Sequence record: PX880100.1
Length of the DNA: 64,000 bases
DNA from: a phage
Direction: 5' to 3' (one strand)
Under the pieces are notes generated by a model. The model searched no databases, had not been told where the DNA came from, and saw nothing but the letters and a program-made list of their open reading frames with translations. Positions 959 to 62,873 of the stretch are shown piece after piece. Numbering within the stretch: the first letter of the stretch is position 1; each line of letters opens with the position of its first letter. The translations under genes and the position numbers were made by a program.

Positions 959-3518
959 CGAGAATCCTTCTCACGTTATCCAAATCTTTACATACAGCAA
1001 TAAACTTATCATCCTTGTATTTGCTATGATCTGGATGCTCTTTATCCATTGCAGCTAGTTTCTTATACTCGAACTCTGCATCAAGTAATACACCCTTGAC
1101 ATAACGAGTATATTCATCATCATCAATACAAGCGATTGATGGGTGCTGTTTCTTCATCTTACCACAAGAATAGTCACGAGAACCTCCAGCTTCAGAATCT
1201 GAGTCAATACCAATCGGACAACCAGGAATACTGATACCACGGTCTTTCTGAATATTACGAATCAGGATTTCATTGTATTGGTCGATCAAATCCTCACGAA
1301 CAATAGCAACTACGGAGTCGTGAACCAGCATAACAATCTTCATCTCTTGTTCTAGGCCAAGAGAAATGATCTCATTATCTGCATCTACAGCACCTAAAAG
1401 GAGACTATCAGAAGAAGCAGACTGAATGATTGCGTTAAATCCAGAACGGATTTCTTCACCCTGAACACCACGGTCTTCGGAATGGATATTATGCAGACGA
1501 CGTTTACGCCCAAAGTGACTATAGATAAATCCATGATTCTTGATCTGGTCGTGACATTTATCAATCCAACGCTTAAGCTGCGGGAACTGACCGAAGTAAG
1601 TTTCGATATAGTCCTTCGCATCCGCAACAGTACACTCTACAAACGGTTCTCCTGTCTTAGCAGCCTGTTCCAAAAGAGCTTCGTTAACAGAATGAGCTAC
1701 CTTAGCCGGGCCAGAACCATACAAAATACCAAAGGTGATTGCTTTAGCTGCTTGACGCAGAGCTGGGAATAACTTTTTAACATCACGAGGCTCGCATTGG
1801 AGCTTAAATACCATGTGTGCGATGTTAGAGTGGAAGTCAGGGTATTTATCTGGTTCATTTCTCATGTTGATAAATACTTGTTGCATATTTCTATCACCAG
1901 ATAGAACAGCAGCATAATAAACTTCCGCAGTTGTTAAGTCCCATGCAATTACACGATACCCGGGAGGGGCTACTACACAACCCTTGATAATAGATTCATC
2001 ACGAGGTAACTGTTGCAGATTCAGTTTACCAGAAGAACTCAGACGACCAGAAGTAGTCATATGTTCATGGAAGCCAGTACGAATGCAACCATCAGCATCA
2101 ATGCTCAGAAGAATCTTCTCAACGTAAGTAGAGATCAGCTTAGTCAGCTTACGAATCTCTAGTAGGGTCTTAGCAATTGGATGCTGCGTAGACAATTCGT
2201 TCAGAGCTTCTGCATCTGTAGAGTCTGCTCCAGTATCCGTCAATTTACCTGTTGGAGTTAAGCCAACATAATCAAACAGAAGAACACGGAGTTGTTTAAC
2301 AGAGTTTGGGTTAAACGCTTCGTTCTGATCTTTCTCTAGCTGAACGACTTCTGGATAAGTATACAGCTTTTCACGAGCTTTATTCAGATTATGAGTTAAC
2401 TGGTACTGTGCTTCTTTCAAGCGATCAATAGAAATTGGTACACCACGATCTTCAACACGCTGGAGAAATACGCAACCAGGCATTAGAACATCATAATACA
2501 GACTGCAAAGTTTTTCATTCTTCTCAATTTTTGGTAAGAAGAAATTGTGCAAACGTAGGGTGGCATCGGTATCTTTTGCAGCGTAAGGCCACATAATATC
2601 AAACGGAATTAAATCATAGGTGAAATCTTCTTTCTTGATCTTATGTGCTTTGCAGTAATCATCCTTGAACTTATCTAGTTCAAAGTCATAGTCACCCATA
2701 TCGGTATACTTCATTGCTAGAGATTTCAAGCCATGAGTACCACGACGTTCATCTAGAACATAATGCTGCAACATAGTATCATGGAGCCTGCGTTCTTTAT
2801 GCGCTTTATCAAAAGTAAGTCCCAGATGGTACTTATAAAAGTGCATATCAAACTTCAAGTTGTGAAAAACAATAGTGTGGTTTTCACTATCCAGAATTTT
2901 CTGGAGATAATATACTGCAACCTCTGTGAGACAATCAGAATCGATATATACACCCTGATATTCTTGGTGAGACATAGAAACACCAAGCAGATAACCATCT
3001 CGACAGTATAGTGCTGAGGTTTCGGAGTCGAATGCGACAGGTCCGATAACCATATTATACACCATCTTGATATATTCTTCCGCCTCGTCAGGGTCAGTAA
3101 TAGGACGGTAATCACCAGCTTTTGCAATCTTCTCACGACCATTGATAATATCGTGGATATTTTCTACTGTTGCATCGAAAACTGGTTTCATTTCAGGCTT
3201 AAAGTGTAACTGGGCTGGGCTGATACTCGCAATCCAGTTAGCATATCCATTATACTCTACACGTTTACCAGTATAGTCACCAATGCCTTTCTTACCTGCG
3301 AAATACAGGAAAGGTTCAGCACCTACCAGTATAACAAAATCATAATCATTCGGGTCAAATGGGTTTTCCGGAGTCCCAATAGTAATATGCTTTTTGAGCA
3401 AACGACCGGATAACTTCTCGTTACACATATGGAATACATCAACTTCCTCGCCGTATAGCTGGAAATGTTTATCGTAACGAGTGTTATTTAGAGCTTTATC
3501 AACTACTGCGATTTTCAA
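951..3518 (-). CDS. DNA polymerase, family A (Pol I-like) with 3'-5' exonuclease domain
   Basis: 855 aa; exonuclease motif FDSETSALY, polymerase motif B KAITFGILYGSG, motif C-like LVHDSVV; matches T5-type replicative polymerase architecture. Confidence 0.93.
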   Translation of the reverse strand: MKIAVVDKALNNTRYDKHFQLYGEEVDVFHMCNEKLSGRLLKKHITIGTPENPFDPNDYDFVILVGAEPFLYFAGKKGIGDYTGKRVEYNGYANWIASISPAQLHFKPEMKPVFDATVENIHDIINGREKIAKAGDYRPITDPDEAEEYIKMVYNMVIGPVAFDSETSALYCRDGYLLGVSMSHQEYQGVYIDSDCLTEVAVYYLQKILDSENHTIVFHNLKFDMHFYKYHLGLTFDKAHKERRLHDTMLQHYVLDERRGTHGLKSLAMKYTDMGDYDFELDKFKDDYCKAHKIKKEDFTYDLIPFDIMWPYAAKDTDATLRLHNFFLPKIEKNEKLCSLYYDVLMPGCVFLQRVEDRGVPISIDRLKEAQYQLTHNLNKAREKLYTYPEVVQLEKDQNEAFNPNSVKQLRVLLFDYVGLTPTGKLTDTGADSTDAEALNELSTQHPIAKTLLEIRKLTKLISTYVEKILLSIDADGCIRTGFHEHMTTSGRLSSSGKLNLQQLPRDESIIKGCVVAPPGYRVIAWDLTTAEVYYAAVLSGDRNMQQVFINMRNEPDKYPDFHSNIAHMVFKLQCEPRDVKKLFPALRQAAKAITFGILYGSGPAKVAHSVNEALLEQAAKTGEPFVECTVADAKDYIETYFGQFPQLKRWIDKCHDQIKNHGFIYSHFGRKRRLHNIHSEDRGVQGEEIRSGFNAIIQSASSDSLLLGAVDADNEIISLGLEQEMKIVMLVHDSVVAIVREDLIDQYNEILIRNIQKDRGISIPGCPIGIDSDSEAGGSRDYSCGKMKKQHPSIACIDDDEYTRYVKGVLLDAEFEYKKLAAMDKEHPDHSKYKDDKFIAVCKDLDNVRRILGA

Positions 3519-4471: not shown

Positions 4472-5991
4472 ATATCGCTGGCCTGTTCACCTGTTGAATT
4501 TTCAGTTTTGTCTTTCTTAGCACGTTTAGGTTGAGCCGGCTTATCCTTCTCAATAGGGATAACGAACTCAGCTTCCATTTGAGATATATCTTCCATTGCT
4601 AGGTTGGTAGTGTTATCCATTCGCAGAGTTTCCCAGTTCATTTTAGGCATAAACTTCACGCTATCAGAAGAACGAGTCTTAACGAAGTCAAACATAATAG
4701 CACCTTGACCATTATCAGCTTTTGCAGCGTTAAGATTAGCAGCCATGTCGGCGGAATCAAGAATCCCCTTTGACATACGTGTTCTACCATCTTGATCAAT
4801 CTGGTAAGGAGCTACACCAGCCACGTTATGTTTCTGGCAGATAGATTTGAAAGACGAGCTAACAACCATCTGTTCTTTCCAGTCATACATATCAATGGTT
4901 TTAGAGTCTGGAAGTCGGGTTTGGTTAATATAGTCCAGTAAAGCTACTGTAACTTTATCTCCATATCTAGCAACTAATTTATTTAATTCTACGTCAACTG
5001 TTGTAATAGATAGCTCAGGGTCATAAACAATAATCATAGGAGTATGTAGCTCATACCCTTCTATTAGCTTACTTTCCATATCGTAGAAATCACTCATCTT
5101 AGCCATTGTGTACTGTTTAACGAAGTTATCGAAAAGCTCTTCACCCCCATTAAACATTCTAGCTCTAGTTCTGGCTAATCTCAATAGAGCTGCACCTTCT
5201 AGAGTATTATTACGCATTGCTAATGCTGATACACCAGCTAACATGGCTAGATTACGTCTAAATACTTCATGTTCTTTCATCTCAATTGAGAAGTATGGAG
5301 CAATATCTCCATTCAAATATTGCTGAACCTGTATGTTTGAACAGATAATGGATTTACCAGTACCACGCCAACCACCAAGCAGTAACGTTTCTGTGCGAGC
5401 TAAACCAATTTGAGCGTCGAACTCATTACAAATACCAAGAGCGATTAAGTTCAGTTTGGTATCTTCTTCTCTCTGGAAAATACGCATGTTATCTGCGTTG
5501 AATACTTTTCCAGTATTCGTTACTTTCTCTTCTAATTTTAAGTGAAGGGAGGCAACTCGGTTGAGAATTTCTCCCTGATCCAGCATTGTTAAATCTTGAA
5601 GCACGTCTGTTTCTAGAAGCTTCAGGAATAAATCTTGTGTATATTCGGCTTCTAGGACTTCAAGTGCCTGTTCCATGCTCACTTCTGGAATTTGAGTGTT
5701 AGCTAAGACGACTAGAGCTTGAGAAAGGCGGGCGTTCCTATTAGCTTCAAGCATAAGTGCGTCAATGGACGGCATTGTGTTATATTTTTTATAATAATTC
5801 TGGACGGCTTGGTAAATTGAGGAGAAAGCGTCATTAAAATGATCTTTATGCAGTTTTGAGAATGTTTCCAATGCTATTTGCTTCTGTTCGGAAGCTAGAA
5901 GCATCTTCAACACTACAGCTTGCACGTTAAACAAGGTCATTCTCCTTTGCACGCTTTCGTGCCTTCTAAATGCAAAAAGGGGAAGGAGCAT
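4468..5991 (-). CDS. replicative helicase-like RecA-fold ATPase
   Basis: 507 aa; Walker A LLGGWRGTGKS; GGAGG-type RBS before ATG at 5991 (alternative start at 5940); operon with primase and polymerase. Confidence 0.7.
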   Translation of the reverse strand: MLLPLFAFRRHESVQRRMTLFNVQAVVLKMLLASEQKQIALETFSKLHKDHFNDAFSSIYQAVQNYYKKYNTMPSIDALMLEANRNARLSQALVVLANTQIPEVSMEQALEVLEAEYTQDLFLKLLETDVLQDLTMLDQGEILNRVASLHLKLEEKVTNTGKVFNADNMRIFQREEDTKLNLIALGICNEFDAQIGLARTETLLLGGWRGTGKSIICSNIQVQQYLNGDIAPYFSIEMKEHEVFRRNLAMLAGVSALAMRNNTLEGAALLRLARTRARMFNGGEELFDNFVKQYTMAKMSDFYDMESKLIEGYELHTPMIIVYDPELSITTVDVELNKLVARYGDKVTVALLDYINQTRLPDSKTIDMYDWKEQMVVSSSFKSICQKHNVAGVAPYQIDQDGRTRMSKGILDSADMAANLNAAKADNGQGAIMFDFVKTRSSDSVKFMPKMNWETLRMDNTTNLAMEDISQMEAEFVIPIEKDKPAQPKRAKKDKTENSTGEQASDI

Positions 5992-6022
5992 AGCCCCCTC
6001 CCCTTAGGTTTAATTTACCAGA

Positions 6023-6790
6023 TTATTCAGCAGCCGCAGCTTTTGCATCCAGTTTAGCACGCTTAGCGGCACCATCATAGTCCTTAGCAACCAGACCGCG
6101 ACGAGACAGCATAGATTTAACACCGCGCTCAGACTTACCAGTTTTCTCAGCGATCTCAGCAACAGTCATGTTAACCAGATCCAGACCTTCTAACAGATCT
6201 TCACGAGTTTTAGCACTTGAAGTTTCCTGTACCGGCATAGCAGCGATACGACCTTCACGAAGTAGGCTCAGAGCTTTACCACGGATCTGCTTGATATTAC
6301 GACCGAAGTGAGCAGCGATAGCTTCAATAGTAGCACCAGCAACAACCTGATTAACAAAATCAGTTTCTTCATCCGGAGTGAAGGAACGAACAGCAGCAGC
6401 TTTTTCAGTTGGCTTAACAGAAGCGGTCATTTCCAGACTCAGGATCTTACCCTGTACCTGTTTAGCACCGAACTGACCACCAGCTACAGCAGCAGCGATT
6501 TCAGCATAGGTATACTGACCAGCATGAGCGTTCAGGAAATCAACCAGTTCAGCTTCCTGCTCAGGAGTCCACGGGGATTTCTGCACTTCGTTAGCTTTTT
6601 GTACTTCAAAACCTTCTTTACGCAGTTTAGAGCCAACAGAGCGAGCAGTAACATCTTTGCCAGTTTCAGCAGCCAGTTCAGCAGCAATAGCAGCTACTTG
6701 TTCTTGAGAGATTACAGAAACACCCAGAGCAGTGGCTTTTGCTTTCAGAGACTCGGTTACACCTTCTACGTTCCAGTTCAGTTTAGACAT
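6023..6790 (-). CDS. putative DNA-binding protein (T5 D5-like by size and position)
   Basis: 255 aa Ala/Glu/Lys-rich protein between helicase and ligase genes; assignment by synteny, not by motif. Confidence 0.4.
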   Translation of the reverse strand: MSKLNWNVEGVTESLKAKATALGVSVISQEQVAAIAAELAAETGKDVTARSVGSKLRKEGFEVQKANEVQKSPWTPEQEAELVDFLNAHAGQYTYAEIAAAVAGGQFGAKQVQGKILSLEMTASVKPTEKAAAVRSFTPDEETDFVNQVVAGATIEAIAAHFGRNIKQIRGKALSLLREGRIAAMPVQETSSAKTREDLLEGLDLVNMTVAEIAEKTGKSERGVKSMLSRRGLVAKDYDGAAKRAKLDAKAAAAE

Positions 6791-9314: not shown

Positions 9315-9364
9315 TTACATATCCCAAATACACAAAAAGCCCCATATAGGGGCTAATTGTTTTC

Positions 9365-9661
9365 TTATCGGCCTACTGGAGAAGCACGATCTAACTCTGA
9401 TTGGAGGCTAGTCACACGACGGACTTTCTCGACAGGAATAAAACGGAAGCTATCATTAGTACGAGAGAAGACAAGGATTTCATCATCTTTCGCTTTACGG
9501 ATACGTTCGCGTTTAATACGCTCAGCCAGATATTTATCTTGGGCCGGATCAAATTCCATTGTACCCTGAAGGTACGTGGTTCCTTTCTGACGAAGTTTCT
9601 CGTAATGAAGATAAAACTCACCAAATTTTTCGCACTGTGCAATAATTTCAGCTTTAGTCAT
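9365..9661 (-). CDS. hypothetical protein (98 aa)
   Basis: Track ORF co-oriented with neighbours; no motif recognised. Confidence 0.5.
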   Translation of the reverse strand: MTKAEIIAQCEKFGEFYLHYEKLRQKGTTYLQGTMEFDPAQDKYLAERIKRERIRKAKDDEILVFSRTNDSFRFIPVEKVRRVTSLQSELDRASPVGR

Positions 9662-59964: not shown

Positions 59965-60854
59965 TGGGATTTTATAGTAATAGAAAACCAAAAGGTGTAA
60001 CTGGTAAATTCGCAGTTGAAGAAAGACCTTTTCCACCAGTAGATGTAGAGAAACTACGTGAACTTCTAGAAATGCTAGAAGGTTGCCATGAACGTTGTTA
60101 TTCTGAACTCTCTTTAAATGAGAAACGTGTTGTTGAGATGTTCTGTATTCGTTCAGCTAGAACAGCTAAAGGTACTTCTCCAAAAGATGAAGTAAAAGAA
60201 TACAGAGTTCTAGTGATGCATGCTTGGGCACAACGTTTTGCAGTTCATTCACTTCAGGAATGGTTTAATCTTCCAGCATATAAAGATTTCCATGTTTATG
60301 AAGATGAAGTTATGAATTATAATGAGTTGTATGGTTTGTCTTTCAAAAAGACAGGCTCACCGATGCATGATGCACTCAATTCATTCCCTGATCATTACCT
60401 TCCAGTTCGTGAATACAGAGATCGTGAAGGAAATAAACCCTGCTTCACTATTTGGAACAAGTCTAAGACGATATCTGATCTAGATAATTATTGGTTCCGC
60501 ACAAAAGAAGGATTCCTAGGAACAGAGCCTTTACCTAAGGATCTCAAACCTATCCTTCCGCCTGCGAAACCTAAGCATGAAGTAACGATTGCTATTAATA
60601 GAATAATTCTAGGAGCAGATGATCTTACTAAACAAATCGCCGCAGTTATCGCAGTTCTATTTGATGGTACAAATTCTTCTGCACGTTATGAGAAGCTAAC
60701 AGGTAACAAATTGCAGATACCTAACGAGTTATATGAGAGTTCGTGCAAGATCTATGATAATTTTAGTAAAGTAGATTACCCCGTGAGGTCCATCAAAGAA
60801 CTCATGGAGTATGCGGAGATGGGGATGAAAGGAAATCTCATGTTCGATGAATAA
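59964..60854 (+). CDS. hypothetical protein (296 aa)
   Basis: Track ORF; last rightward gene before the repeat region. Confidence 0.5.
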   Translation: MGFYSNRKPKGVTGKFAVEERPFPPVDVEKLRELLEMLEGCHERCYSELSLNEKRVVEMFCIRSARTAKGTSPKDEVKEYRVLVMHAWAQRFAVHSLQEWFNLPAYKDFHVYEDEVMNYNELYGLSFKKTGSPMHDALNSFPDHYLPVREYRDREGNKPCFTIWNKSKTISDLDNYWFRTKEGFLGTEPLPKDLKPILPPAKPKHEVTIAINRIILGADDLTKQIAAVIAVLFDGTNSSARYEKLTGNKLQIPNELYESSCKIYDNFSKVDYPVRSIKELMEYAEMGMKGNLMFDE

Positions 60855-60861
60855 ACTCTAC

Positions 60862-60890
60862 TTGACGTTATGATTTCTGCATGTTATAAT
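60862..60890 (+). promoter_or_regulatory. promoter directed into the ORF-free repeat region
   Basis: TTGACG, 17-bp spacer, TATAAT; no ORF downstream; approximate. Confidence 0.45.
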
Positions 60891-61193
60891 AACTCTATGA
60901 AATAACATAGAATAAAGAGATCCACCCGGATACGGATAGTGGATGGGAAACTTCTATTTCCCCCGTAGCTTGTCGGAGGGCTAGGGAAATCTTAAGAAGT
61001 TTTGTACCATCTCACGCAATTCGTATCCCAGGGGTGGAGCATCTCTTCCAATCTTTGGGGGATCTTATATTTAAATTAAAGGTAAAACTTTTGACCACAT
61101 AATTTACATTCAAGATGATACACTTGTTGCCACCGCTCTTCCTAGGATGGCACGACACTTTCTAGTAGACTCCTAAGTTTCTAGGAAAATCCT

Positions 61194-61930
61194 GTCGTAT
61201 TTGCACATATTATAGGGCAGTTTCTCTCCTGCTATAAATATCCTAGGCCGGTTTTCCTACACAGGGCGGTTATTGGGAGGGCGGTTATTTCTAGAAGACA
61301 TTTTTCCAAAACACATTTCCAGAATTCATTGTCGGATTCGCACATTGTGTTTCTAGAAATTTATGGTCGGATTTGCACAATCGCCTAAGTTTTTAGGAAC
61401 ATATAATCTCCTGAAAATGGCAGCATTATTTCGGGCCGAAGGCCCATGATTGCCTGAGTTTTTAGAGCCACAAGAATTTTCGCTTGTCAAGCTATTTTGC
61501 CCCATTTAGCTAATAAAATTTTACCTTTTCTGCACTTATCTCAAATTAACCCAAATCTTCTCAACTCTTCCCCAAAATCCCCGCAAATCAGGTGCTCCGC
61601 ACCAAACATGCACCTCTCTCACAGTTCTCTCAAATTTTTCTCGCTCTCTCAACTTCTCCCCGAACTCATACAATCACACACCCTCTAATCGAAGTCACAA
61701 AAATCTTGTCGGATTCGCACAAATAAACCCATGTCGGATCTGCACATACTCTAGCTAATTCCACAGGATTGATGCGCAGCATCGGATTGCTGGAGTTTTT
61801 GGGAAAATTCATTGTCGGATTTGCACACTATAAAAATTTTTCGGGTCGGATTTGCACACTACCAAAAATTGTCGGATTTGCACATACACGCCCACGCGTA
61901 ATCCATGGGGGCAAATGTCGGATTTGCACA
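61194..61930. repeat. nine dispersed copies of a 14-bp motif GTCGGAT(T/C)(T/C)GCACA
   Basis: Copies at about 61194, 61331, 61366, 61708, 61733, 61814, 61845, 61871, 61917, all in the same orientation with irregular spacing (25-342 bp). Confidence 0.7.
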
Positions 61931-61934
61931 AAAG

Positions 61935-61952
61935 CGCAGGGCAATTGCCCTG
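61935..61952. repeat. perfect 18-bp palindrome GCAGGGCAATTGCCCTGC
   Basis: Read directly; could form a hairpin or cruciform. Confidence 0.7.
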
Positions 61953-61972
61953 CTCGCCTGAATGCGAATAAA

Positions 61973-62150
61973 AATGAGAATGATTCTCATTTAAAAAGCG
62001 GAATGCGAATGATAATGATTCGTATTTAAGAATGGAAATGAGAATTATTCAGGAAGTGAAACGATTCTCATTTAAAAAGTGGAATGATTATTAGTTACAT
62101 AGTAAAACGCGAATGATAATGATTCGTATTTAAGAATGGAAGAGAGAAAC
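61973..62150. repeat. interleaved direct repeats and palindromes
   Basis: Unit GATTCTCATTTAAAAAG(C/T)GGAATG occurs twice and unit GCGAATGATAATGATTCGTATTTAAGAATGGAA twice; palindromes AATGAGAATGATTCTCATT and CGAATGATAATGATTCG inside. Confidence 0.65.
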
Positions 62151-62163
62151 ACTATTATTTAAG

Positions 62164-62172
62164 TTATCCACA
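62164..62172 (+). promoter_or_regulatory. DnaA box (TTATCCACA)
   Basis: Exact 9-mer consensus; second copy 73 bp downstream. Confidence 0.55.
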
Positions 62173-62236
62173 GACTTATTAACAGCACGATTTGACTTGA
62201 CAGAATCCTAGCCATTTTGAGGCGTTATTAACAGAC

Positions 62237-62245
62237 TTATCCACA
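62237..62245 (+). promoter_or_regulatory. DnaA box (TTATCCACA)
   Basis: Exact 9-mer consensus; flanked by permuted CAGACTTAT / TTAACAG motifs shared with the first box. Confidence 0.55.
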
Positions 62246-62263
62246 GCTTATCCTACTGTATAA

Positions 62264-62283
62264 ATATACAGTATTCCTACGCA
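62264..62283. promoter_or_regulatory. LexA (SOS) box-like palindrome TACTGTATAAATATACAGTA
   Basis: CTGT-N8-ACAG with AT-rich spacer and palindromic flanks, matching the E. coli LexA-box consensus pattern. Confidence 0.45.
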
Positions 62284-62467
62284 GTGAATAATTCTAATAT
62301 AGCGTTAAAACGTCCTAGATCGCATTCTAACGCGTTTAATTTTGTTGGGGATACTAAAACAAGGGCAAAATTGGAGGAGGCTTAGAAATTAGTTAGCTCG
62401 CTAACGATCACACAAGGCGACACGTAACACCCTAACCATTAGCAGGCTAACCATCGCGGGCGCGGTC

Positions 62468-62488
62468 AAATGAGAATCATTCTCATTT
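62468..62488. repeat. palindrome AAATGAGAATCATTCTCATTT
   Basis: Read directly; related to the AATGAGAATGATTCTCATT palindrome ~500 bp upstream. Confidence 0.65.
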
Positions 62489-62639
62489 GAGAATTGGGGG
62501 CACTTCCCGATAGTTGCGCCCCGTGATTATTACAGTAGTGGGCAACCGTTACGTTTTGCCCACTCCCGCCACTCATCTTGATACCTAGACTTGCGACGGC
62601 GTACTAAAAACCGTTTATACCAGTGATTAAACCATTGTT

Positions 62640-62873
62640 TCATAAATCCTCCTCCGGTAGTCGATGCGTGATTTTTTCCTCCTCCCCGTAGGAATCCGCC
62701 AAATGCTGATAATAACCATCGTGATCATAAATCACTTTATCATACTCGCCACGCTCGACCGCTTGCCGATTCTCCGGCGTATCGGGCACATAAAAAACAT
62801 CAACCATTGTACTAGTTTTGGTCACAATAATTTTATTGCTCATAATAACTCCTAGTAAATATATTTTTGCCAA
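62640..62873 (-). CDS. hypothetical protein (77 aa)
   Basis: Track ORF; higher GC than the rest of the window; GGAGG-type RBS upstream on the reverse strand. Confidence 0.5.
   Translation of the reverse strand: MAKIYLLGVIMSNKIIVTKTSTMVDVFYVPDTPENRQAVERGEYDKVIYDHDGYYQHLADSYGEEEKITHRLPEEDL

What the first reader, a model, noticed from the sequence alone, without database searches (positions are those of the whole stretch)
62264..62283. LexA-box-like palindrome in the terminal repeat region
TACTGTATAAATATACAGTA fits the E. coli SOS-box pattern (CTGT, 8-bp AT-rich spacer, ACAG, palindromic flanks) almost ideally, yet no co-oriented gene start lies just downstream. It may regulate a non-coding transcript, act with the neighbouring DnaA boxes, titrate LexA, or be coincidental in AT-rich palindromic DNA.
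Basis: partly seen in the sequence, partly recalled or inferred. Interest (0 to 1): 0.5.

Follow-up and report, generated by a model that had tools for sequence, protein, structure and literature searches.

The report
Conserved LexA box in T5 injection-stop DNA
A near-perfect binding site for the bacterial DNA-damage repressor LexA sits beside DnaA boxes in the stretch of T5-like phage DNA where genome injection pauses, and its conservation from E. coli to Vibrio phages points to an overlooked host factor in a mechanism unexplained for over 50 years.

Summary
The palindrome TACTGTATAAATATACAGTA is real but lies at 62254-62273, 10 nt left of the reported coordinates. The window is a T5-like phage (Demerecviridae). 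The site sits in the non-coding injection-stop (iss) end of the terminal repeat, 8 nt from a pair of DnaA boxes.

- **Match:** it fits the LexA consensus at 19 of 20 positions. My approximate heterology index is about 0.8, better than any E. coli operator I compared.
- **Chance:** excluded, at roughly 5e-7 per position for far weaker matches.
- **Conservation:** the same box occurs at the same one or two positions per terminal repeat in phages of Escherichia, Salmonella, Klebsiella, Proteus and Vibrio, whose A1 proteins are only 31-42% identical at the extremes. It is the only long invariant block in a cross-genus alignment. The substitutions it tolerates are those real LexA operators tolerate.
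- **Not a classic operator:** no conserved promoter, ORF or known RNA adjoins it.
- **Status:** GenBank records leave it unannotated, and the T5 literature I could read treats it only as part of the IRD' repeat.

Best reading: a genuine high-affinity LexA site that works architecturally with DnaA on first-step-transfer DNA. LexA binding and its role remain untested.

The parts
62254..62273 (.). LexA-box palindrome TACTGTATAAATATACAGTA (distal copy, 'copy B'), homologous to T5 NC_005859 9410-9429
   Evidence: sequence; approximate HI 0.8; conservation
62237..62245 (+). Consensus DnaA box TTATCCACA, 8 nt from the LexA box
   Evidence: The 8-nt gap is found in 24 of 38 diverse loci; most other loci have a degenerate adjacent box
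62225..62233 (+). DnaA-like box TTATTAACA, paired with the previous box across a 3-nt gap
   Evidence: pairing as described by Davison (10.1101/866236)
62164..62184 (+). Second DnaA box pair, TTATCCACA-gac-TTATTAACA
62143..62273 (.). Homologue of the T5 131-bp IRD'-spacer-IRC' inverted-repeat arm. The LexA box forms its inner end
   Evidence: T5 coordinates
62274..62333 (.). Conserved flank continuing the inverted repeat (ttcctacgcagtgaataattctaatata...taaaacg...ttctaacg). No convincing promoter
   Evidence: promoter scan
60855..62639 (.). Non-coding injection-stop (iss) region between convergent genes. Homologues of T5.018 end at 60854 (+) and of T5.017 at 62640 (-). By homology the terminal-repeat boundary lies near 61460
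   Evidence: the distal box lies 777-819 bp from the boundary in most close relatives, 583 and 883 in two

Best explanation
The palindrome is a genuine, near-maximal-affinity binding site for the host LexA repressor. It is kept by selection as a fixed component of the DnaA-box module (the IRD/IRD' arms) of first-step-transfer DNA in T5-like phages. This part is inferred, not shown: a LexA dimer, abundant in every uninduced cell, occupies the site within seconds of entry, next to DnaA bound at the adjacent box pair. LexA would be on roughly the same DNA face, about two helical turns centre to centre by my own arithmetic from the 8-nt gap. Together they would form a stable host-protein complex about 290 bp before the point where DNA transfer pauses. 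The complex would act architecturally rather than as a classical SOS operator of a gene. It could be a roadblock or insulator at the end of the rightward pre-early operon, or an anchor at the injection-stop boundary. The second, inverted copy brackets the same operon on its other side.
For: Shown by computation:
- The site matches TACTG(TA)5CAGTA at 19 of 20 positions (consensus from PMC6590174). Approximate HI is 0.8, against 2.3-12 for 23 E. coli operators.
- HI is reported as a reliable predictor of LexA binding (PMC12527982).
- The chance rate for HI below 6.5 is about 5e-7 per position. In 1.03 Mb of loci anchored on A1 rather than on the box, every hit (up to two per locus) falls in the same two zones upstream of A1.
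- The box is present in Escherichia, Salmonella, Klebsiella, Proteus and Vibrio phages whose A1 is 31-100% identical. All these hosts are Gammaproteobacteria, the class that holds 99.3% of bacteria carrying canonical SOS boxes in the PSOSP survey.
- In 37 unique distal sites, positions 2-5 (ACTG) and 16-18 (CAG) are invariant. The centre is free A/T. The only arm changes are T6>G and A15>C, the CTGG and CCAG variants of real operators, plus rare single changes.
- It is the only long invariant block in the cross-genus alignment.
- Sites stay near consensus (HI 0.8-2.8). I read that as selection for tight occupancy rather than tuned regulation.
- The gap to the DnaA pair is fixed at 8 nt. The arrangement is mirrored in both copies.
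- The distal box always lies 0.5-1.0 kb from the repeat boundary.
- Davison places the calculated FST shear point at 9618 and a second reported FST band at about 5846, near the two module copies.
Against: - No LexA binding data exist.
- My HI matrix was built from operators recalled from memory.
- No mechanism is known by which cytoplasmic LexA or DnaA could halt DNA translocation.
- One Vibrio-phage lineage (L088-L090) lost the distal boxes and degraded the proximal one, yet keeps the DnaA boxes, A1 and A2. The box is therefore not universally essential.
- The proximal copy lies between divergent promoters, where a roadblock has no obvious target.
- To my knowledge (memory, unverified) T5 plates on recA strains, so LexA cleavage cannot be required.
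Confidence: 0.55

Rival explanations
1. It is a classical SOS operator. LexA represses an unannotated promoter overlapping or adjoining the box, driving a non-coding or antisense RNA or an auxiliary pre-early promoter that fires when the host is SOS-induced.
For: Weak sigma-70-like hits use the right half of the box as a -35 element. These are TATACA-N16-AATAAT in the window and TATACA-N16-TATTAT with an adjacent TATAAT in T5 copy A. In Vibrio relatives, strict sigma-54-type promoters lie 10-105 nt from the boxes, some pointing at them. A -10-like TAATAT lies at a conserved distance of about 21 nt in T5-like and Klebsiella phages.
Against: The -35 matches are poor. The T5 TATAAT is absent from most relatives' copy A. 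The centre dinucleotide of copy B flips AA/TT among relatives, so no strand-fixed -10 can lie inside the box. The flanking genes converge on the site. The 33-aa ORF has no Shine-Dalgarno sequence and ends at different points in T5 and the window phage. No Rfam family matches. No strict sigma-54 match occurs in any enterobacterial locus scanned.
Confidence: 0.15
2. The palindrome is the target of a phage-encoded dimeric DNA-binding protein, for example A2 or a small pre-early protein. The LexA resemblance is coincidence, or deliberate competition with LexA.
For: The T5 record annotates A2 as a DNA-binding protein required with A1 for second-step transfer, and it is conserved family-wide. One 64-aa ORF is shared by two box-containing Vibrio phages and missing from the box-less lineage.
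Against: A 16-20 bp identity to the host LexA consensus is maintained while A2 diverges to 35-42% identity, which is hard to explain by a co-evolving phage protein. No pre-early protein has a LexA-type or any other recognisable DNA-binding Pfam domain. The box-less lineage keeps A2 (86% identity) and A1 (80%). The tolerated substitutions mirror LexA operators.
Confidence: 0.12
3. It works as a DNA structure or cleavage site: a hairpin or cruciform, or the palindromic cut site that Davison's model proposes for an A1/A2 'restriction' activity releasing the FST block.
For: It is a perfect 9+2+9 palindrome. The single strand folds better than shuffles (-4.6 kcal/mol, z = -3.8). Davison proposes cleavage at a palindrome in this region. 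The invariant A1 motifs look like an Mre11/SbcD-type phosphoesterase (my reading from memory, with no Pfam hit).
Against: The stem is short, AT-rich and weak, so cruciform extrusion from duplex DNA is unlikely. In the proximal copy the outer flank bases no longer pair (CA...GG) while the LexA core stays intact; this is conservation of sequence, not of pairing. Davison's model places the cut to the right of the block, whereas this box lies to its left.
Confidence: 0.08

Closest known systems
E. coli chromosomal SOS boxes (for example umuDC, dinD, sulA, recA operators)
   Same: Same 20-bp motif TACTG(TA)5CAGTA. The CTG/CAG triplets are invariant and the centre is AT-rich. The variants seen in relatives (CTGG, CCAG) also occur in real operators.
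   Different: It is closer to consensus than any operator I compared. It is not placed over a recognisable promoter or start site. It lies between convergent genes in phage DNA and is coupled at fixed spacing to DnaA boxes.
LexA operators of temperate phages and plasmids (from memory: CTXphi rstA, coliphage 186 tum, colicin genes; GIL01 gp7-LexA is cited within PMC5114364)
   Same: A mobile element uses the host LexA repressor through a canonical box.
   Different: Those elements use LexA to couple induction or toxin expression to SOS at a promoter. T5-like phages are strictly virulent and no controlled promoter is evident here.
T5 injection-stop signal repeats (IRD'-spacer-IRC' and IRC-spacer-IRD with DnaA boxes; Wang 2005 and Davison 2020 nomenclature)
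   Same: This is the same locus. The box forms the inner end of each 131-bp inverted-repeat arm, and the window copy is the orthologue of T5 9410-9429.
   Different: The published descriptions I could read list it only as repeat or palindrome sequence and discuss DnaA. LexA and SOS are not mentioned.
DnaA-box/DnaA transcription roadblocks and promoter-less LexA targets from ChIP studies (both from memory: Schaefer and Messer 1988; Wade et al. 2005)
   Same: A host DNA-binding protein site located away from promoters, which could block elongating RNA polymerase or have no regulatory target.
   Different: A combined DnaA-plus-LexA module duplicated in inverted orientation around an operon has not, to my knowledge, been described.

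Membership tests
Gammaproteobacterial LexA operator (SOS box) | 20-bp palindromic motif TACTG(TA)5CAGTA with a CTGT-N8-ACAG core | tested here: met
   19 of 20 positions match; the only mismatch is at central position 10
Gammaproteobacterial LexA operator (SOS box) | Low heterology index, within or below the range of validated operators | tested here: met
   Approximate HI is 0.8, against 2.3-12 for 23 operators. The matrix was built from memory-recalled sites, so the value is approximate. The use of HI is supported by PMC12527982
Gammaproteobacterial LexA operator (SOS box) | Conserved in orthologous regions, with substitutions confined to positions LexA tolerates | tested here: met
Gammaproteobacterial LexA operator (SOS box) | Overlaps or adjoins the promoter or start site of a regulated gene | tested here: not met
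   No conserved sigma-70 promoter, gene start or known RNA lies nearby, and the flanking genes converge. Sigma-54-like promoters adjoin the box only in Vibrio relatives
Gammaproteobacterial LexA operator (SOS box) | Bound by LexA in vitro or in vivo, with RecA/LexA-dependent derepression | not testable with these tools
   Needs EMSA, ChIP or reporter assays
T5 iss module (IRD'-spacer-IRC') | Located in the non-coding inner end of the terminal repeat and orthologous to the T5 sequence | tested here: met
T5 iss module (IRD'-spacer-IRC') | Paired DnaA boxes separated by 3 bp, with an inverted second copy upstream of the rightward pre-early operon | tested here: met
   The DnaA pairs are in the window. 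The second copy was seen in T5 and relatives but lies beyond the window's end
T5 iss module (IRD'-spacer-IRC') | Cis-acting role in stopping first-step DNA transfer | not testable with these tools
   The literature assigns this only by position

The most novel reading that the evidence does not exclude
LexA, acting with DnaA, is the long-sought pre-existing host factor of the T5 injection stop. The incoming DNA is held when the LexA/DnaA module is loaded. Transfer resumes when the complex is removed, either by A1/A2 or by LexA self-cleavage after A1-triggered host DNA breakdown. That would make a virulent phage's genome delivery gated by the host SOS repressor.
Probability: 0.12. Interest if true: 0.9.

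Novelty: new variant of a known kind. Interest (0 to 1): 0.68.

Why it matters
How T5 stops DNA injection at 8% of its genome has been unexplained since the 1960s. The current proposal rests on DnaA boxes alone. A second host-protein site, more conserved than anything else in the region and of near-maximal predicted affinity, gives a concrete candidate that is easy to manipulate. lexA(Def), lexA(Ind-) and box-mutant phages are all feasible with existing T5 editing methods. It would also be an unusual case of a strictly virulent phage family keeping LexA sites with no apparent gene to regulate. That would widen the range of uses phages make of the SOS repressor.

Tried and rejected
- **Chance palindrome:** rejected by shuffles and Markov simulations.
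- **Promoter overlap:** the sigma-70 scan gave only weak hits (9 of 12 positions) that are not conserved.
- **Small ORF 62284-62385:** it has no Shine-Dalgarno sequence and its stop position is not conserved.
- **Known RNA:** Rfam gave only sub-threshold noise.
- **Host or plasmid origin of the module:** no match in 5,426 complete E. coli genomes or in PLSDB plasmids.
- **LexA-like phage protein:** Pfam found no DNA-binding domain in 16 T5 pre-early proteins or in the two window proteins beyond the repeat (T5.018/T5.019 homologues).
- **Co-loss test for a phage-encoded binder in the box-less lineage:** inconclusive, because small pre-early genes turn over too fast.
- **Fur-box reading of the neighbouring AATGAGAATGATTCTCATTT repeats:** only 13-14 of 19 positions match, so this is not convincing.
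- **A1-homologue loci outside Demerecviridae** (Shewanella 1/4, metagenomic L084, L085, L097-L099): they have no box and no module, so they say nothing either way.
- **Davison's 2015 review:** could not be retrieved.
- **Heusterspreute 1987 and Wang 2005:** not in the library, so an old mention of LexA cannot be excluded.

Full report
**Observation.** The 20-mer TACTGTATAAATATACAGTA occurs once in the window, at 62254-62273. The finding's coordinates (62264-62283) are 10 nt too far right. The rest of the description is accurate:
- It has a CTGT-N8-ACAG core with an A/T-only spacer and palindromic TA flanks.
- DnaA boxes lie immediately to its left: TTATCCACA at 62164 and 62237, and TTATTAACA at 62176 and 62225.
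- No gene start follows on either strand. The nearest genes converge on the region, ending at 60854 (+) and 62640 (-).

**Where this is.** The window is a T5-like phage. A 2-kb query around the site matches 457 phage records, nearly all Escherichia or Salmonella Demerecviridae. The window runs in reverse orientation relative to the T5 reference. In T5 NC_005859 the homologous stretch is the non-coding 'injection stop signal (iss)' at the inner end of the 10.2-kb left terminal repeat. T5 carries the same palindrome at 9410-9429. Wang and Davison call this sequence the start of the 131-bp IRD'-spacer-IRC' repeat.

**Strength of the match.** The published consensus is TACTG(TA)5CAGTA (PMC6590174). 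The site matches 19 of 20 positions, the exception being central position 10. I built a heterology-index matrix from 23 E. coli operators recalled from memory, so values are approximate. The site scores about 0.8, against 2.3-2.4 for umuDC and dinD, 4.9 for recA and 12 for polB. It is the only site below 8 in the 64-kb window. HI is reported to separate binders from non-binders reliably (PMC12527982). In Markov-random sequence of the window's composition, sites below 6.5 occur about 3 times in 6.4 Mb. None appeared in two further 3-Mb runs.

**Conservation: two copies per repeat.**
- All 26 loci anchored on the neighbouring T5.017-like gene have the box at the homologous place, with HI 0.8-2.8.
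- Most also have a second box about 3 kb further into the repeat, typically TACTGTATAAATATACAGGG. In T5 it lies at 6211-6230, between the divergent pre-early promoters annotated at 5938-6012 and 6411-6489.
- The two copies are mirror images, each adjoining a DnaA-box pair. Together they bracket the rightward pre-early operon (T5.011-T5.017).
- The second copy lies beyond the end of this window.

**Conservation: across subfamilies.** To avoid selecting on the box itself, I anchored on the pre-early protein A1.
- tblastn followed by an A1 alignment gave 64 IMG/VR loci totalling 1.03 Mb.
- Every locus whose A1 is at least 43% identical to T5's and that has enough upstream sequence, and most Vibrio-phage loci at 31-35%, has a box with HI below 6.5.
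- Every such hit, up to two per locus, lies in the same two zones upstream of A1. About 0.5 hits would be expected by chance.
- Individually fetched genomes agree. Klebsiella Sugarlandvirus has two HI-0.8 boxes. Proteus Novosibvirus (A1 42% identical) has boxes of HI 2.1 and 5.8 flanking the same operon. Vibrio phages JSF10, GRLPWR and 70E35.2 (A1 31-35% identical) have boxes of HI 2.1-3.7.
- In an eight-sequence alignment spanning five host genera, ACTGTATA and TACAG of the box form the only long invariant block.

**Substitution pattern.**
- In 37 unique distal sites, positions 2-5 and 16-18 never change.
- Positions 10-11 are free A or T.
- The arm changes seen are T6>G and A15>C, the CTGG and CCAG variants of genuine operators, plus rare single changes.
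- The box carries 1.73 bits per position, against 1.0-1.2 in the flanks.
- All hosts involved are Gammaproteobacteria, the class that holds nearly all bacteria with canonical SOS boxes.
- Sequence identity to a host-factor consensus, held while the phage's own proteins diverge to 31-42% identity, is what a host-protein site predicts.

**Geometry.**
- The gap between the last DnaA box and the LexA 20-mer is 8 nt in 24 of 38 diverse loci and 7-9 nt in four more. Most of the rest have a degenerate adjacent box.
- The distal box lies 520-1030 bp from the inner repeat boundary in every contig that carries both repeats, and 791 bp in T5. By homology this places the boundary near window 61460.
- Davison's calculated FST shear point is at 9618 in AY587007 numbering, where IRD' starts at 9332. 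That is about 290 bp beyond the box, or roughly window 61985.
- Davison also cites a second FST band at about 5846, near the other module copy.

**Is it a classical operator?** The evidence says probably not, at least in the enterobacterial phages.
- Promoter scans give only weak hits (9 of 12 positions) that use TATACA of the box as a -35 element.
- A good TATAAT downstream of T5 copy A is absent from most relatives.
- The centre dinucleotide of the distal copy is AA in 22 sites and TT in 13-15 sites, so a strand-specific -10 inside the box is excluded.
- The 33-aa GTG ORF lacks a ribosome-binding site, and its stop position is not conserved.
- Rfam finds nothing.
- In Vibrio relatives, however, strict sigma-54-type promoters (TGGCAY-N5-TTGCW) lie 10-105 nt from the boxes. 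An operator or roadblock role towards those promoters is possible in that subfamily.

**Could a phage protein read the site?**
- No T5 pre-early protein, A2 included, shows a LexA-type or any other DNA-binding Pfam domain.
- A2 is only 35-42% identical between T5 and the Vibrio phages.
- One Vibrio lineage (L088-L090) has lost the distal boxes and degraded the proximal one to CCATG.../CTATG... It still retains the DnaA boxes, A2 (86% identity) and A1 (80%).
- So the box is separable from the DnaA boxes and is not obligatory for A1/A2 function. This also cautions against calling it essential.

**Could it be a structural element?** The single strand forms only a -4.6 kcal/mol hairpin. In the proximal copy the outer flanks no longer pair while the LexA core is intact. 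Selection therefore acts on sequence rather than on pairing.

**Status in databases and literature.**
- The module is absent from 5,426 complete E. coli genomes and from PLSDB plasmids.
- It is present in 542 phage records, usually at two places per repeat. The features listed under it are 'none', 'hypothetical protein' or repeat annotations.
- The T5 RefSeq record annotates the iss, a terminator and a nick there, but no LexA site.
- Davison's 25-phage analysis of this region discusses repeats, palindromes and DnaA boxes and never mentions LexA or SOS.
- Two 2026 T5 papers do not mention LexA or SOS either.
- Full-text searches pairing LexA or 'SOS box' with 'first-step transfer' or 'Demerecviridae' return nothing. 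The hits for LexA with 'T5-like' or 'bacteriophage T5' looked unrelated; one was checked directly.
- The 1987 iss paper and the 2005 genome paper are not in the library, so an early remark cannot be excluded.

**Mechanism: shown and inferred.**
- *Shown:* a near-consensus LexA motif, under strong purifying selection, fixed next to DnaA boxes, at conserved positions in first-step-transfer DNA.
- *Inferred:* LexA (about 1300 molecules per uninduced cell) binds it on entry. With DnaA it builds a stable complex just inside the point where transfer pauses. This complex acts as a roadblock, insulator or anchor rather than a tunable operator. Persistence near consensus fits a need for tight, long-lived occupancy.
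- *Speculative:* the complex contributes to the injection stop itself, or gates transcription-driven DNA entry.

**Verdict.** The feature is real, non-random and deeply conserved, and apparently unrecognised as a LexA site. It is a known kind of element (an SOS box) in an unusual, promoter-less, DnaA-coupled context within a virulent phage. LexA binding and its function need experiments.

Noticed in passing
L032 395; L033 5656 and 8457; L034 555 and 3745; L081, L086, L088, L092, L093, L094: Strict sigma-54-type promoter motifs (TGGCAY-N5-TTGCW) occur 2-4 times per pre-early region in most Vibrio T5-like phage loci scanned. My own estimate of the chance rate is about 0.04 per locus. Several sit next to the LexA-like boxes. 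None occurs in the T5, Klebsiella or Proteus loci or in the window; two loci with A1 66-68% identical to T5 (hosts not identified) have one each.
   Followed up: partly
window 61148-61163: A near-match to a sigma-54 promoter, TGGCACGacacTTTCT, with a perfect -24 element and TC instead of GC at -12. It is conserved in T5 (TGGCACAacacTTTCT) and lies just outside the terminal repeat.
   Followed up: no
window 61970-62136 and 62466-62490: Six copies of a palindromic unit, AAATGAGAATGATTCTCATTT or GAATGATAATGATTCGTATTT (the DRE/DRC/pal repeats of the T5 literature). They loosely resemble the Fur box, but only 13-14 of 19 positions match, so this is not convincing.
   Followed up: partly
window 61327-61937: Seven or more copies of TGTCGGATTTGCACA (the DRD repeats). 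Together with the DnaA boxes and AT-rich repeats, the region has the look of an iteron-type replication origin. Davison discounts this because T5 origins map mid-genome.
   Followed up: no
L088, L089, L090 (IMG/VR Vibrio-phage contigs): This lineage keeps the DnaA boxes, A1 and A2. It has replaced the distal LexA-like boxes with unrelated sequence, and its proximal box is degenerate (CCATG.../CTATG...). It is a natural box-less variant that could be used for comparison.
   Followed up: partly
Alignment A1 (A1 proteins of T5, Klebsiella, Proteus and Vibrio phages): The invariant motifs GDxH, HD, SNH, HGH and GHTH look like a calcineurin/Mre11-SbcD-type metallophosphoesterase. This is my reading from memory; Pfam returns no hit for A1.
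   Followed up: no
window 2349-2368: A weak LexA-like site, TTCTGGATAAGTATACAGCT (approximate HI 8.3), lies inside an 855-aa ORF. Sites this weak are expected about 0.06 times per window by chance, so it is probably fortuitous.
   Followed up: partly
window 62274-62333; T5 L028 6231-6290; Klebsiella, Proteus and Vibrio loci: A recurring CTAAAACG...TCTAACG-like motif and a TCT-NN-TATA element lie at a conserved distance of about 21 nt outside the LexA box, in both copies and across genera. Their function is unknown.
   Followed up: no
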